From: Bacteriophage P2
Length of the DNA: 33,593 nt
Sequence record: NC_001895.1
Strand: one strand, 5' to 3'
A program made the translations under genes and the position numbers. Below, piece by piece: positions 1-33,593 of this stretch (within the stretch, counting starts at the first letter, position 1; each line of letters begins with the position of its first letter). The notes under the pieces were generated by a model, which was not told the origin of the DNA, did not search any database, and saw nothing but the letters and a program-made list of their open reading frames with translations.

Positions 1-19
1 GGCGAGGCGGGGAAAGCAC
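1..19 (+). repeat. cos: Left cohesive-end (cos) sequence; identical 19 nt recurs at 33575-33593
   Basis: Exact 19-nt identity GGCGAGGCGGGGAAAGCAC at both window termini; P2-type phages have 19-nt 5' cohesive ends. Confidence 0.8.
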
Positions 20-159
20 TGCGCGCTGACGGTGGTGCTGATTGTATTTTTTCAGCGTCTCAGCGCGTCGTGACGGCACTTAGTCTGCCCGTTGAGGCGT
101 TGTGTGTCTGCGGGGTGTTTTGTGCGGTGGTGAGCGTGTGAGGGGGGATGACGGGGTGT

Positions 160-26290: not shown

Positions 26291-26461
26291 ATGAATGAGC
26301 CTCGTTGTATTGCTCAGTTACTGCGTAACGAAAGCCCCAGGGCGATTGACTTCACCATCACCCACGGTAAGGGGCGTAAGGGAATCATTATCCGCACCAA
26401 AAAACAGAGTCCGTTAAAAAAGGCTCTGACCTTTCTGAAAAGCCGGAGGGTATGGAAATGA
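26291..26461 (+). CDS. Small early protein of unknown function (P2 orf78 position)
   Basis: ORF track starts at a GTG (26267); ATG 26291 with AAGGAGAA RBS gives 56 aa. Confidence 0.6.
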   Translation: MNEPRCIAQLLRNESPRAIDFTITHGKGRKGIIIRTKKQSPLKKALTFLKSRRVWK

Positions 26462-26958
26462 CAGTGATGACGCTCAATCTCGTTGAAAAACAGCCAGCAG
26501 CTATGCGCCGGATAATTGGTAAGCATCTTGCCGTTCCTCGCTGGCAGGATACATGTGATTATTATAATCAGATGATGGAGCGCGAACGGTTAACGGTTTG
26601 CTTCCATGCTCAGTTAAAACAGCGTCACGCAACGATGTGTTTTGAAGAAATGAACGACGTCGAACGTGAACGACTGGTATGTGCAATTGATGAATTGCGT
26701 GGTGCATTCTCAAAACGCCGTCAGGTTGGCGCAAGTGAGTATGCATATATTAGTTTTTTAACAGTCAGTCAGCGTCGTACTTTATTTATGCATGCCGGAT
26801 TGACTGAAAAAGAATTCAACCAGCCATACTGGCGAATTAATGAAGAGTCATGTTACTGGCGTGATGCTTTATTCCGTGCATTACGTGAATTATTCAGTCT
26901 GTTTGAGTATGCACCGACAATTCTGACGTCGGTAAAACCGGAGCAATATCTGCATTAA
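26458..26958 (+). CDS. B: Replication protein B (helicase-loader-like, needed for lagging strand synthesis)
   Basis: ATG 26458 has better RBS spacing (GGAGGG 26445-26450) than 26452 and gives 166 aa; position before the replication initiator. Confidence 0.8.
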   Translation: MTVMTLNLVEKQPAAMRRIIGKHLAVPRWQDTCDYYNQMMERERLTVCFHAQLKQRHATMCFEEMNDVERERLVCAIDELRGAFSKRRQVGASEYAYISFLTVSQRRTLFMHAGLTEKEFNQPYWRINEESCYWRDALFRALRELFSLFEYAPTILTSVKPEQYLH

Positions 26959-27021
26959 GTAATTAACCAGAGTTTTTAACGCACTTAATTGTGCGGGGCT
27001 TCTTTTTGCCTGGAGAAAGTT

Positions 27022-27246
27022 ATGCATACAGTTTCTGAAAATCAGTGCGGTATATACGCATTACTGCTGCAACAGGCCAGAACCGAAGCACAGGCCGACG
27101 CTGCGACGCGCTTTTCTTCTCATCTTGATGCCATGATTCGCCACATCACAAAGGCGGAGTTATCCCGCGTGGAGATAGTCGAGCTGCTCAGTCAGGAGTC
27201 GGAAAAATTTCACAATATCGGATTGTCTCGCGGGGAGGTGCTTTGA
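27022..27246 (+). CDS. Small early protein of unknown function (orf80 position)
   Basis: ATG 27022 with GGAGAAA RBS at 27012-27018; ORF-track upstream extension has no RBS. Confidence 0.6.
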
Positions 27247-31619: not shown

Positions 31620-33380
31620 TTAAATCCATTTTATGAAATCTTCCATTTCATCATATTTTTTTATTACTGCTCTAACATCTTTGCTTTCATCACATAAACA
31701 ATCTAAAAGACTATCCCATTCAGTTTGTTTTTTACCAAATCCATAAACAGCCTCTATATCACCGGATTTCCATATATAGATTCCGTTATCTTTCAATTTT
31801 TGATGTATTTCATGTATATGCTTTTGTGTTTTTTCATGGTTACATATTTTGATGAAGTCTTTGCTTGAAATGCTTTTGAATGACTCAAAAGTAGTAACTT
31901 TTGTATTTAAACTAAGCTCTCCTGAGTTGATTGATTCAATCAAAGCAGTCAATAGATTATCACATTCAGTACTAAGTAAGTCTTTATGCTCTGTTAATAG
32001 AATATTTGATAAGAAATCACAATCAGCTAGAATCCTTGTTTTTATGCCGATGGCATTGATGATTTGTGACATCTTAAATAAACTACCCTTACCGTCAACG
32101 GCAACAATGCAGATTTTACTCGGGTTGAGTTCATGTCCGTTAATTTTTTTATAAAGTGCATATAGAACGTTTGTCTCTGTTTTCCCTTCAACAAGCAAAA
32201 CTTCTTCAGAAAATAAAAGGTATGATGAATTAGAAAGCGTGAATGCTGAGTGCAATTGCGGTGATGAAGATTTATATAATTCTTCGATTTTTTCAGATAT
32301 AGTCTTCCTTGCTATGGTTCCATTAGAATCCTTACAAACCTGAATCGCATTTGCTGCATGCTTTGCAGAAAGCATACTGGCTGAGTGAGTTGATATTATA
32401 ACCTGATACCCTGATTCACTTAATGTGACAAGTGATTCTCTGACAGAATTAATGGCTGAAGGGTGTAAATATAACTCAGGTTCATCAATGAAAATCAAAG
32501 TGTTTGATTTTTTTGATTCGCTGTTTTCTTTTTTTATTTCGGCCAGGTATTGAATTAATGCCATTTGAATGGAACGTTGTGTTCCGTGACCAAATCGGCT
32601 GATATCTCTCATTACCGGTTCATCTTCCCGAGACTCAAAAACTTTCAGAGTGCCGGATTTAAATATCTCATCTAATGTCGGTGTGGGAAAGTGTAACTTT
32701 ACACTTACGTCAGGAAAAAATTGGTTTACTTTTTTATTTACACCTGAGTCTATTTTATTAAGGCTTTCTAATCTGTTCTCACCGTTGTGAGAAAGATATT
32801 TACCTATTTCTGATATGTTTTTTGAAAATTTTTCTTCGTGTTCTTGTTTTATTTCAGAAACAATTGCGGAAAGTATCTTTCCTATTGTGGTCGTGTTTTT
32901 GCATTTTGTTGAGTCTTCGACAGCGTCAGACATTGCAGGGATATGAATTGGTTCCGGAAATATATTGGAGATTGCACCATCTATGCCGCCAGGGTTTTTC
33001 TTCCACGTGGTACCGTCATATACATCCAGACTTTTTTTGGCTTTTCCTGTTTCCTTATTAAATTCCTGTCTTCTTGCAAAGGTAAGAGTCCCGTCAATTA
33101 TAAACGGAGCTATTTTTTGTTGATTCTCTTCTGTTAACAAAGACAGAGTATCATCTGTTATACCTTGAATAACGCCTTCAACGGATACGGGGTGTGTAGG
33201 ATCGTACACATCTGATTCTGAAATCAAAGAGCCATCTAACAGCCACTTAATTGCTAAGATAATATTTGATTTTCCTGCGTTATTATAACCAACTAAAGCA
33301 GTGAAGGGGCGCAAAATAGCCGATGTTGACTTACAAGAACGAAAGTTGCTAATTGAAACTGAAGCAAGACGTACAGTCAT
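31620..33380 (-). CDS. old: OLD-family nuclease: N-terminal ABC-type ATPase fused to C-terminal TOPRIM domain (anti-phage / overcoming lysogenisation defect)
   Basis: 586 aa; Walker A GYNNAGKSN near N-terminus; Walker B LIFIDEPELYLHP; TOPRIM-like LLVEGKTETNVL and DxD in ILADCDFLS; AT-rich; last gene before right cos. Confidence 0.85.
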   Translation of the reverse strand: MTVRLASVSISNFRSCKSTSAILRPFTALVGYNNAGKSNIILAIKWLLDGSLISESDVYDPTHPVSVEGVIQGITDDTLSLLTEENQQKIAPFIIDGTLTFARRQEFNKETGKAKKSLDVYDGTTWKKNPGGIDGAISNIFPEPIHIPAMSDAVEDSTKCKNTTTIGKILSAIVSEIKQEHEEKFSKNISEIGKYLSHNGENRLESLNKIDSGVNKKVNQFFPDVSVKLHFPTPTLDEIFKSGTLKVFESREDEPVMRDISRFGHGTQRSIQMALIQYLAEIKKENSESKKSNTLIFIDEPELYLHPSAINSVRESLVTLSESGYQVIISTHSASMLSAKHAANAIQVCKDSNGTIARKTISEKIEELYKSSSPQLHSAFTLSNSSYLLFSEEVLLVEGKTETNVLYALYKKINGHELNPSKICIVAVDGKGSLFKMSQIINAIGIKTRILADCDFLSNILLTEHKDLLSTECDNLLTALIESINSGELSLNTKVTTFESFKSISSKDFIKICNHEKTQKHIHEIHQKLKDNGIYIWKSGDIEAVYGFGKKQTEWDSLLDCLCDESKDVRAVIKKYDEMEDFIKWI

Positions 33381-33574
33381 TATTTTTCCTTAAATGTGCT
33401 ATTTGTATGCAATGAGTTCATACGAAACGCTTTTTTACATTTTATAGTCGTTGCATTCAAGGGTGCATGAGATTGCATTAAGGGAAACTGTGATATGGCT
33501 TGGCTTTTGACTGGAAATACTGATGGCTCATTAGTTTTATTAAGGTGCATTAAAACCGCCCCGTGAAGCGGGCG

Positions 33575-33593
33575 GGCGAGGCGGGGAAAGCAC
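33575..33593 (+). repeat. cos: Right cohesive-end (cos) sequence, identical to 1-19
   Basis: Exact 19-nt identity with the window start; preceded by GC-rich palindrome CCGCCC...GGGCGG at about 33557-33577. Confidence 0.8.

What the first reader, a model, noticed from the sequence alone, without database searches (positions are those of the whole stretch)
33451..33557. TTGCATT(C/A)AAGGG direct repeats between the old start and right cos
TTGCATTCAAGGG (33451-33463) and TTGCATTAAGGG (33474-33485) lie 23 bp apart, with a third related GTGCATTAAAACC at 33545-33557 abutting the cos palindrome. They could be operator or promoter elements for old, or terminase recognition (cosB-like) sites near the packaging end.
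Basis: seen in the sequence. Interest (0 to 1): 0.45.

Follow-up and report, generated by a model that had tools for sequence, protein, structure and literature searches.

The report
Conserved TGCAT repeats beside P2 cos
The short TGCAT repeats near the right end of this P2-type phage genome sit at the same distances from the DNA-cutting site in P2-like phages of many bacteria and in the P4-like satellites that borrow their packaging enzyme, so they are most likely an unrecognised outer part of the packaging signal, not a switch for the neighbouring old gene.

Summary
The repeats are real, with small corrections. Copy 2 is 33473-33484, not 33474-33485, and the spacing is 22 bp. The true unit is TGCAT at 33452, 33464, 33474 and 33546, which is -123, -111, -101 and -29 from the cohesive end.

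Inside this window alone the cluster is only modestly unusual. Comparison with other sequences decides the matter. Among 52 diverged families of cos flanks, TGCAT occupies the -101 site in 40 and the -111 site in 39. The background is 0.0009 per position. The spacing between these two sites is always 10 bp, and the next TGCAT lies 71-73 bp away, across DNA that is otherwise unalignable.

The same layout is found in 186, PSP3, EtG, a Yersinia phage, a Klebsiella phage, Burkholderia KS5, Ralstonia RSY1 and P4-like satellites. It does not depend on which gene lies beside it or which way that gene reads. phiCTX carries YGCAG at equivalent places.

old homologues that are not next to cos lack the repeats. 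The best reading is therefore a cosB-like distal arm of the P2-family packaging signal, outside the published 55-bp core. Binding by the terminase is inferred, not shown. A candidate old -35 box overlaps the outermost copy.

The parts
33452..33456 (+). It is the least conserved of the distal sites. In many relatives it reads TGCATGCA or ATGCAT.
   Evidence: TGCAT occurs at -120 to -124 in 186, PSP3, EtG, RSY1, YenM_201.16, Klebsiella phi13.2, KS5, L008 and L009. There is an exact TGCAT in the 8-position window in 23 of 52 diverged families. It is present in the P4-like consensus.
33464..33468 (+). R2, TGCAT within GGTGCATGAG at -111.
   Evidence: Exact in 39 of 52 diverged families and within 1 mismatch in 51 of 52. 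Found at -111 or -110 in every named TGCAT-type relative.
33474..33478 (+). It lies exactly 10 bp from R2.
   Evidence: Exact in 40 of 52 families and within 1 mismatch in 49 of 52. R2-R3 spacing is 10 in 27 of 27 families where both are exact. Consensus TGCAT.aaTTTGCATg.
33479..33545 (.). Spacer between the distal array and the core. Its length is constrained: R3 to the core TGCAT is 72 bp, and 71-73 in relatives. Its sequence is almost free. Most relatives have a weak middle island, CCAG..CTGGCGCGG, at about -62 to -48. P2 has only a degenerate version around 33509-33526.
   Evidence: Per-column information is near zero. Spacing counts are 72 (23 families), 71 (8) and 73 (4). The ungapped display of 11 phages is. 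No IHF consensus with 1 mismatch or fewer falls in this stretch.
33546..33557 (+). It is the left edge of the conserved P2/P4 cos core. Most relatives read ATGCA-N2-TGCAT here, an inverted repeat. P2 itself lacks the left arm.
   Evidence: Homology of all other P2-like phages to this window begins at 33546 (at query position 166, at query position 47). TGCAT is in this column in 47 of 52 families and ATGCA seven bases upstream in 27 of 52.
33556..33575 (.). G+C-rich inverted repeat CCGCCCCGTGAAGCGGGCGG inside the core, immediately left of the nick site.
   Evidence: One search flagged it as a terminator-like stem on the minus strand. The columns are highly conserved.
33575..33593 (+). The 19-nt cohesive end, also present at window 1-19. 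Together with TGCGCGC at window 20-26 it completes the 55-bp core shared by P2-like and P4-like elements (33546-33593 plus 7 nt).
   Evidence: The P2-like and P4-like consensus sequences diverge right after TGCGCGC. The 55-bp core is cited in PMC9594776, PMC5694545 and PMC3931495.
33432..33460 (-). Candidate sigma-70 promoter for old: -35 TTGAAT at 33460-33455, a 17-bp spacer, and -10 TAAAAA at 33437-33432. The -35 overlaps R1 by two bases. This is inference only and the -10 is weak because it lacks the final T.
   Evidence: TTG(A/C)AT-17-TAAAA(A/C/G) is kept in P2, L003, L008 and L009. The consensus scan did not pick it up.
33378..33391 (-). old ribosome-binding site AAGGA (33391-33387) and start codon ATG (33380-33378). 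These are context, not part of the repeat system.

Best explanation
The TGCAT copies are cis-acting parts of the P2-family DNA packaging signal. Three distal copies (33452, 33464, 33474, which are -123, -111 and -101 from the cohesive end) and one proximal copy (33546, -29) flank a spacer of fixed length and free sequence.

Proposed mechanism, by analogy with the R sites of lambda cosB:
- The terminase, most likely an oligomer of its small subunit gpM, reads the distal array and the proximal site together.
- The roughly 72-82 bp between them is bent or wrapped. About one turn around a small-terminase ring would bring the two sets of sites side by side.
- This positions the large subunit on the nick sites 25-45 bp further right.

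What is shown: position-specific conservation of motif and spacing across phages and satellites that share nothing else there.

What is inferred: that the reader of the sites is the terminase, that both sets are read by one complex, and the wrapping geometry.

The old gene simply sits next to this signal. Its candidate -35 box overlaps the outermost copy.
For: (1) Among 120 viral loci found with the cos core alone, there were 91 distinct left flanks and 52 diverged families.
- TGCAT is exact at R3 in 40 of 52 and at R2 in 39 of 52, and within 1 mismatch in 49 and 51.
- The background is 6 occurrences in 6552 positions.
- R2-R3 spacing is 10 in 27 of 27. R3 to core is 71-73.
- Information content between the array and the core is about zero.

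(2) YGCAT sits at -124/-123, -111, -101 and -29, and with two exceptions nowhere else in the 200 nt, in P2, 186, EtG, Ralstonia RSY1, Yersinia YenM_201.16 and Klebsiella phi13.2. The exceptions: YenM_201.16 has an overlapping copy at -120, and phi13.2 has an extra one at -134. PSP3 has -120, -111, -101 and -29. Burkholderia KS5 has -123, -110, -100 and -29, plus -155 and -37.

(3) P4-like satellites (Psu and Delta confirmed) use the helper's terminase and share only cos with P2 (PMC9122126). They keep the three distal copies at the same positions, downstream of psu. Their variable hotspot lies on the other side of cos, starting right after TGCGCGC.

(4) The array is independent of its neighbour. 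The nearest ORF reads toward cos in 27 loci and away in 23.

(5) phiCTX has no TGCAT. It has YGCAG at -109, -99, -83, -37 and -28, a concerted change at both distal and proximal sites. Its GenBank record annotates 'R4,R5,R6 repeats' across cos.

(6) Aeromonas LPM4 has three AGGATC repeats at -128, -109 and -97. A distal triple repeat is therefore kept even where the motif differs.
Against: - No binding, footprint or deletion data could be obtained. Ziermann & Calendar 1990 is not held, and papers that cite it speak only of a 55-bp core 'required for packaging'. If 55 bp suffices, the array can only be a stimulatory element.
- In Aeromonas LPM4 the distal motif differs while the proximal TGCAT is kept. 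This argues against one reader for both sets.
- The distances (72, 82 and 94-95 bp) are not whole numbers of helical turns.
- The terminase genes lie on the other side of cos, unlike lambda, where cosB adjoins Nu1.
- Three Peduoviridae loci (phiE202, Kp4845-1, phiT5282H) gave no recognisable cos or array within 2.4-3.4 kb downstream of the portal gene, so the breadth of the pattern is not complete.
- The loci from the pattern scan share an identical 22-nt core and are therefore related. Clustering reduces this non-independence but does not remove it.
Confidence: 0.6

Rival explanations
1. The array is a conserved cis element of the cos region that is read by something other than terminase. Candidates are a host nucleoid or architectural protein that assists cos cleavage, a factor acting on the right DNA end during ejection or circularisation, or an insulator that keeps transcription out of cos.
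For: The conservation data show constraint tied to distance from cos. They do not show who reads the sites. In LPM4 the distal and proximal motifs are uncoupled. In P4-like elements R1 and R2 are the arms of a strong hairpin after psu (-27 kcal/mol, z = -4.5). In 186 a terminator lies just upstream of the array.
Against: The hosts range from Enterobacterales to Burkholderiales, so a single host factor with this specificity is not obvious. No IHF or CRP consensus is present. P2 itself forms no notable structure there (z = 0.69), so a hairpin or terminator role is not general. phiCTX changes the motif at distal and proximal sites together. That fits a phage-encoded reader that co-evolves with its sites.
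Confidence: 0.2
2. The repeats are operator or promoter elements of old. A regulator binds the TGCAT copies around the -35 region and controls old expression.
For: A conserved TTG(A/C)AT-17-TAAAA(A/C/G) arrangement lies 51-67 nt upstream of the start codon in the four cos-adjacent old alleles, and its -35 overlaps R1. The block ATGCAA..CATGCACCCTTG.ATGCA stands out in an otherwise diverged intergenic region in L003, L008 and L009.
Against: The same array is present without old, beside genes of either orientation, and in satellites. old homologues away from cos (L011, L012, L013) lack it. R2 and R3, the best conserved copies, lie upstream of the -35. The promoter itself is weak, was not found by the consensus scan, and is not mapped here.
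Confidence: 0.07
3. The repeats are binding sites for the host repressor CytR, whose octamer is GTTGCATT. 33450-33457 is an exact match and 33472-33479 matches 7 of 8.
For: The CytR half-site GTTGCATT, in direct or inverted repeats with spacers of a few bp or about one helical turn, is described in PMC3454398. The P2 sequence matches it.
Against: CytR acts only together with flanking CRP sites (PMC3454398). No TGTGA-N6-TCACA with 3 mismatches or fewer lies in 33381-33574. The family consensus is TGCAT with variable flanks, not GTTGCATT. The array is kept in Ralstonia and Burkholderia phages, whereas PMC3454398 describes CytR only in some gamma-proteobacteria.
Confidence: 0.03
4. The repeats are a chance clustering of a short A+T-rich word in A+T-rich intergenic DNA.
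For: Within the window alone the signal is modest. Six of 150 simulated genomes contain an equal cluster somewhere.
Against: Position-specific recurrence in 52 diverged families and in nine named phages from several genera cannot be chance.
Confidence: 0.01

Closest known systems
cosB of phage lambda (R3-I1-R2-R1 sites bound by the small terminase subunit gpNu1)
   Same: Several copies of a short motif lie within roughly 120-150 bp on one side of the nicking site. They are separated by DNA whose length matters more than its sequence. The element is specific to phages that share a terminase.
   Different: The motif is unrelated (TGCAT, 5 bp, against the 16-bp R sequence, from my own knowledge of lambda). 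No IHF consensus was found in the spacer. The sites lie on the side of cos away from the terminase genes. Binding by gpM has not been shown.
The 55-bp cos core of P2 and P4 (Ziermann & Calendar 1990, as cited in PMC9594776, PMC5694545, PMC3931495, PMC5247547)
   Same: The core as delimited here, 33546-33593 plus TGCGCGC, is exactly 55 bp.
   Different: The three distal copies lie 72-94 bp outside the core. None of the held papers that discuss the P2 cos region mentions them.
'R4, R5, R6 repeats' annotated across cos in the phiCTX GenBank record NC_003278
   Same: These are repeats flanking the cos of a P2-family phage. YGCAG copies sit at -109, -99 and -28, nearly the positions of P2's -111, -101 and -29.
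   Different: The motif ends in G instead of T, and there are extra copies at -83 and -37. I could not read the paper behind the annotation, so which sequences its authors called R4-R6, and what role they gave them, is unknown to me.
CytR operators (octamer GTTGCATT)
   Same: 33450-33457 equals the octamer. The repeats are direct, with spacings of about one helical turn.
   Different: There are no flanking CRP sites. The flanks of TGCAT are not conserved. The array is also present in phages of beta-proteobacteria.

Membership tests
cosB-type terminase recognition element of a cos phage | Lies beside the nicking site, inside the non-coding cos region. | tested here: met
   The copies lie 29-123 bp left of the top-strand nick, between the old start codon (33380) and the cohesive end (33575).
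cosB-type terminase recognition element of a cos phage | Repeated short motif with constrained spacing. | tested here: met
   Spacings of 12-13, 10 and 71-73 bp recur in 52 families and in nine named phages.
cosB-type terminase recognition element of a cos phage | Conserved among elements packaged by the same terminase, including satellites that share nothing else. | tested here: met
   P4-like satellites keep R1-R3 and the core at the same positions.
cosB-type terminase recognition element of a cos phage | The motif changes together with the packaging system in more distant relatives. | tested here: inconclusive
   phiCTX changes distal and proximal sites together to YGCAG. Aeromonas LPM4 changes only the distal repeats, to AGGATC. 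The terminase small subunits were not compared.
cosB-type terminase recognition element of a cos phage | Bound by the small terminase subunit. | not testable with these tools
   This needs footprinting or gel shifts with gpM or gpM-gpP.
cosB-type terminase recognition element of a cos phage | Deletion or mutation lowers packaging or cos cleavage. | not testable with these tools
   The published deletion analysis (Ziermann & Calendar 1990) is not held. PMC9594776 says only that longer cos flanks may improve cosmid transduction.
55-bp P2/P4 cos core | [quoted passage not shown] | tested here: met
   This holds for copy 3 only. Homology starts at 33546 and the consensus sequences agree up to TGCGCGC. 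Copies 1 and 2 lie outside the core.
Promoter or operator of old | Travels with old, and is absent where old is absent. | tested here: not met
   The array is present in loci without old. It is absent from old homologues that are not next to cos (L011-L013).
Promoter or operator of old | Overlaps mapped promoter elements of old. | tested here: inconclusive
   A candidate -35 at 33460-33455 overlaps R1. The transcription start is not available to me and the consensus scan found no promoter.
CytR operator | CytR half-sites flanked by CRP sites. | tested here: not met
   An octamer match is present, but no CRP-like site with 3 mismatches or fewer lies in 33381-33574.

The most novel reading that the evidence does not exclude
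The packaging signal of the whole P2 family is bipartite and about 150 bp long, not 55 bp. It has a distal array of two or three TGCAT sites, held 72 bp from the core by a spacer of fixed length and free sequence. The small terminase reads the array together with the proximal TGCAT, for example with about one wrap of DNA. The array, not the core, is then the true right-hand border of the P2 defence-gene hotspot. It is also the sequence that satellites and cosmids must carry to be packaged efficiently. In P2, terminase bound there would also cover the -35 region of old.
Probability: 0.5. Interest if true: 0.6.

Novelty: new member of a known kind. Interest (0 to 1): 0.55.

Why it matters
P2 and P4 are classic systems and are now used as cosmid and phage-like-particle delivery vehicles. 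Later papers treat their cos as a 55-bp core. A conserved outer arm would have four consequences.

- It would say which flanking DNA must be kept for efficient packaging.
- It would give a concrete target for mapping how the P2 terminase recognises DNA, which I believe is still unknown.
- It would show that the anti-phage defence hotspot of P2-like prophages ends at the array and not at the core. This explains why cargo of any kind and orientation stops about 125 bp from the cohesive end.
- It would provide a simple sequence rule, YGCAT at -124, -111, -101 and -29, for locating cos sites and genome ends in P2-like prophages.

Tried and rejected
TTGCATTNAAGGG as a unit is not enriched, and only TGCAT is shared.
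- False lead. I first read the block conserved in fEC.1, L008 and L009 as an old-specific footprint with an 11-bp insertion. The insertion was a MAFFT artefact. The block is the general cos array.
- CytR operator. The octamer was confirmed in PMC3454398, but there are no CRP sites and the array occurs in phages of beta-proteobacteria.
- Ogr/Delta-type site (TGT-N12-ACA, a consensus recalled from memory). It is present by eye in L008 and L009 upstream of the array but not in P2 or L003 (sequences), and it is at the wrong distance for a late promoter.
- P2 Cox boxes, PmrA, TyrR and DnaA boxes. I considered these from memory. The matches were partial and not conserved in relatives, so I did not pursue them.
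- IHF site in the spacer. None with 1 mismatch or fewer.
- RNA families. No Rfam match in 33000-33593.
- Secondary structure of the P2 region as single-stranded DNA. Unremarkable.
- The 56-aa ORF at 33380-33550 (minus strand) that covers the whole region. It is rejected as a gene because relatives have unrelated sequence there.
- Literature. Myung & Calendar 1995, the Christie & Calendar review, the Lindqvist 1993 review and Linderoth 1991 are not held. Ziermann & Calendar 1990, Nakayama 1999 and Haggard-Ljungquist 1989 have no PMC id known to me and could not be looked up. A search for TGCAT + cos + P2-like found nothing.

Full report
**1. What the window is**

The window is a P2-type phage genome. 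The 19-nt cohesive end GGCGAGGCGGGGAAAGCAC is written at both ends, at 1-19 and 33575-33593. A 586-aa ORF on the minus strand (31620-33380) is annotated 'ATP-dependent nuclease' in identical E. coli prophages. This is old. The finding lies in the 194 bp between the old start codon and the right cohesive end.

**2. The observation**

Its spacing from the first is 22 bp.
- A further TGCAT at 33464-33468 was overlooked.
- The 13-mer is not a meaningful unit. With two mismatches it finds 5 sites in the window against 3.8 expected.
- What the copies share is TGCAT, on the plus strand at 33452, 33464, 33474 and 33546.
- TGCAT is rarer than expected in the genome as a whole (71 against 110 +/- 11).
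- Four same-strand copies within 100 bp were matched somewhere in 6 of 150 simulated genomes. With local composition they were matched in 2 of 10000 simulated 214-bp stretches.

By itself this is suggestive, no more.

**3. First comparison: two classes of copy**

Every other P2-like phage in the phage collection matches this region only from 33546 onward (query position 166, query position 47). That is TGCATTAAAACC, then the G+C-rich inverted repeat, then the cohesive end. Together with the 7 nt TGCGCGC beyond the cohesive end this makes 55 bp. It agrees with the '55-bp cos core' that several papers attribute to Ziermann & Calendar 1990. Copies 1 and 2 lie in DNA that BLAST finds only in old-carrying prophages.

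**4. A false lead**

In E. coli fEC.1 and in viral contigs L008 and L009, old is about 80% identical and the intergenic DNA has diverged. A block ATGCAA..CATGCACCCTTG.ATGCA nevertheless stands out. I first took this for an old-specific regulatory footprint. I noted that 33450-33457 equals the CytR octamer GTTGCATT, which PMC3454398 confirms. However:

- old homologues of 73-85% identity that are not next to cos (L011-L013) lack the block.
- No CRP-like site flanks it.

**5. The decisive comparison**

I searched viral contigs with only the cos core GCGGGCGAGGCGGGGAAAGCAC, which contains no TGCAT. This returned 120 loci. I lined them up without gaps on that anchor. Almost all of the 91 distinct left flanks show nnTGCATnnnnnTGCAT(G) in the same columns, whatever lies between or beside them.

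I then reduced the set to 52 families that differ at more than 20 of 60 positions in the intervening DNA.

| Measure | Result |
|---|---|
| TGCAT exact at the column of P2 33474 (+/-2) | 40 of 52 |
| TGCAT exact at the column of P2 33464 (+/-2) | 39 of 52 |
| Same two sites, within one mismatch | 49 and 51 of 52 |
| Background in the far flank | 6 occurrences in 6552 positions |
| Spacing between the two copies | 10 bp in 27 of 27 |
| Distance to the core TGCAT | 72 bp (23), 71 (8), 73 (4) |
| Per-column information in the spacer | close to zero |
| A third copy 9-13 bp further out | about 23 of 52 |

**6. Independence from the neighbouring gene**

- The nearest ORF to the left reads toward cos in 27 of 50 loci, so the array follows its stop codon. 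It reads away from cos in 23, as old does.
- In phage 186 the array lies between the annotated terminator t95b and cos.
- In PSP3 it follows the gp38 stop.
- Thirty of the loci have a different right flank. Most of these right flanks are mutually unrelated, and a few are P2-like flanks with small deletions. About sixteen of the left flanks are near-identical.
- One of these loci, L042, encodes Psu (PF07455) and an Ogr/Delta protein (PF04606), so it is a P4-like satellite.
- In this group the left flank with three TGCAT copies is conserved and lies after psu, while the variable hotspot starts right after TGCGCGC on the other side of cos.

P2 and P4 are reported to share only the cos region (PMC9122126; PMC9594776), because P4 is packaged by the P2 terminase. 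That P4-like elements keep the distal copies at the same distance is therefore the strongest single argument for a packaging role.

**7. Breadth**

Measured from the first base of the cohesive end, YGCAT occurs as follows.

| Phage | YGCAT positions |
|---|---|
| P2 | -123, -111, -101, -29 |
| 186, EtG, Ralstonia RSY1 | -124, -111, -101, -29 |
| PSP3 | -120, -111, -101, -29 |
| Yersinia YenM_201.16 | -124, -120, -111, -101, -29 |
| Klebsiella ST512-KPC3phi13.2 | -134, -124, -111, -101, -29 |
| Burkholderia KS5 | -155, -123, -110, -100, -37, -29 |
| L008, L009 | -122, -110, -100, -29 |

The table lists every YGCAT in the 200 nt examined. The copies at -120 (YenM_201.16), -134 (phi13.2) and -155 and -37 (KS5) are the only ones outside the four conserved positions.

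These phages infect gamma- and beta-proteobacteria, and their spacers cannot be aligned.

Two informative variants:
- Pseudomonas phiCTX has no TGCAT. It has YGCAG at -109, -99, -83, -37 and -28, and its record annotates 'R4,R5,R6 repeats' across cos.
- Aeromonas LPM4 keeps the proximal TGCAT but has three AGGATC repeats at -128, -109 and -97.

For three other Peduoviridae (phiE202, Kp4845-1, phiT5282H) I found no cos-like sequence or array downstream of the portal gene.

**8. Interpretation**

The data show purifying selection on a short motif and on its distance from the nick site. This holds in elements whose only common need at that place is to be cut and packaged by a P2-type terminase. 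The closest model is lambda cosB.

I therefore propose that the distal array and the proximal site are read together by the terminase, probably through the small subunit gpM. The DNA between them would be bent or wrapped, and 72-82 bp is about one turn around a ring-shaped small terminase.

Steps that are inferred and not shown:
- the identity of the protein;
- whether distal and proximal sites share one reader (phiCTX says yes, LPM4 says not necessarily);
- the geometry.

Points against a simple lambda analogy:
- No IHF consensus lies in the spacer.
- The distances are not whole helical turns.
- The sites lie on the side of cos away from the terminase genes.

**9. Relation to old**

TTG(A/C)AT-17 bp-TAAAA(A/C/G) is kept in the four cos-adjacent old alleles. 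In P2 the -35 is at 33460-33455 and the -10 at 33437-33432 on the minus strand, 51 nt before the ATG. The -35 overlaps R1 by two bases. The -10 lacks the final T and the consensus scan did not report it. The published mapping of old transcription was not available to me. I keep this promoter as a low-confidence inference. It does not explain the repeats.

**10. What is known**

Every held paper that discusses the P2-family cos region speaks of the 55-bp core only. A full-text search for TGCAT with cos and P2-like found nothing. One paper remarks that longer flanks may improve cosmid transduction. I could not read the original 1990 paper or the phiCTX paper, so I cannot exclude that the distal repeats were noted there.

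**11. Verdict**

This is a real feature. It is a cosB-like element, a known kind, but for the P2 family it is not described in the literature I could reach. It can be tested directly with cosmid mutants and footprinting.

Noticed in passing
whole window: TGCAT is under-represented genome-wide: 71 matches on both strands against 110 +/- 11 in dinucleotide-preserving shuffles, and all 100 shuffles had more. TGCATT has 11 matches against 33.5 expected. This could be avoidance of decoy packaging sites, or ordinary avoidance of palindromic words.
   Followed up: no
window 26703-27027: This is the only other cluster of three same-strand TGCAT within 100 bp (26703, 26742, 26789). There are several ATGCAT palindromes in about 320 bp. 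The cluster lies mostly inside the 168-aa ORF at 26452-26958 on the plus strand, so it may simply reflect the coding sequence.
   Followed up: partly
window 33509-33526; relatives at about -62 to -48 from the cohesive end: Most relatives carry a third semi-conserved island, CCAG(N2)CTGGCGCGG, partly palindromic, in the middle of the spacer. Examples are 186, PSP3, EtG, LPM4, RSY1 and many IMG/VR loci. CTGG[CT]G sits at -58 in 10 of 52 families. P2 itself has only a degenerate version, GACTGGAAATACTGATGG.
   Followed up: partly
L042 3475-3565 (minus strand), P4-like satellite: In P4-like satellites R1 (as ATGCAT) and R2 are the two arms of a 13-bp hairpin, AAAGCCAUGCAUC/GGUGCAUGGCUUU, just after psu. 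Its energy is -27 kcal/mol with z = -4.5, and it is followed by a U-rich stretch. It looks like a psu terminator built from packaging-signal repeats.
   Followed up: partly
window 33403-33423: There is an inverted repeat, GTATG-N9-CATAC, in the presumed old leader, and a 13-nt imperfect inverted repeat pairing 33403-33415 with 33448-33460. An IHF-like match with 1 mismatch lies at 33410-33422 on the minus strand. These are specific to the P2 old allele and absent in L003, L008 and L009.
   Followed up: no
window 33380-33550, minus strand: A 56-aa ORF spans the whole intergenic region and ends in TAATG, overlapping the old start codon. Relatives have unrelated sequence there, so it is very unlikely to be a gene.
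   Followed up: partly
L145 (Aeromonas phage LPM4), about -128 to -92 from the cohesive end: Three AGGATC(T/G) direct repeats replace the distal TGCAT array while the proximal TGCAT is kept. This is a natural motif swap that could reveal which protein reads the distal sites.
   Followed up: no
L011, L013, L012 (viral contigs): old homologues of 73-85% identity sit in contexts that are not next to a P2-type cos. Each has its own promoter-like sequence, for example TTTACA-17-TAAGTT in L011. The old gene therefore moves between contexts without the array.
   Followed up: no
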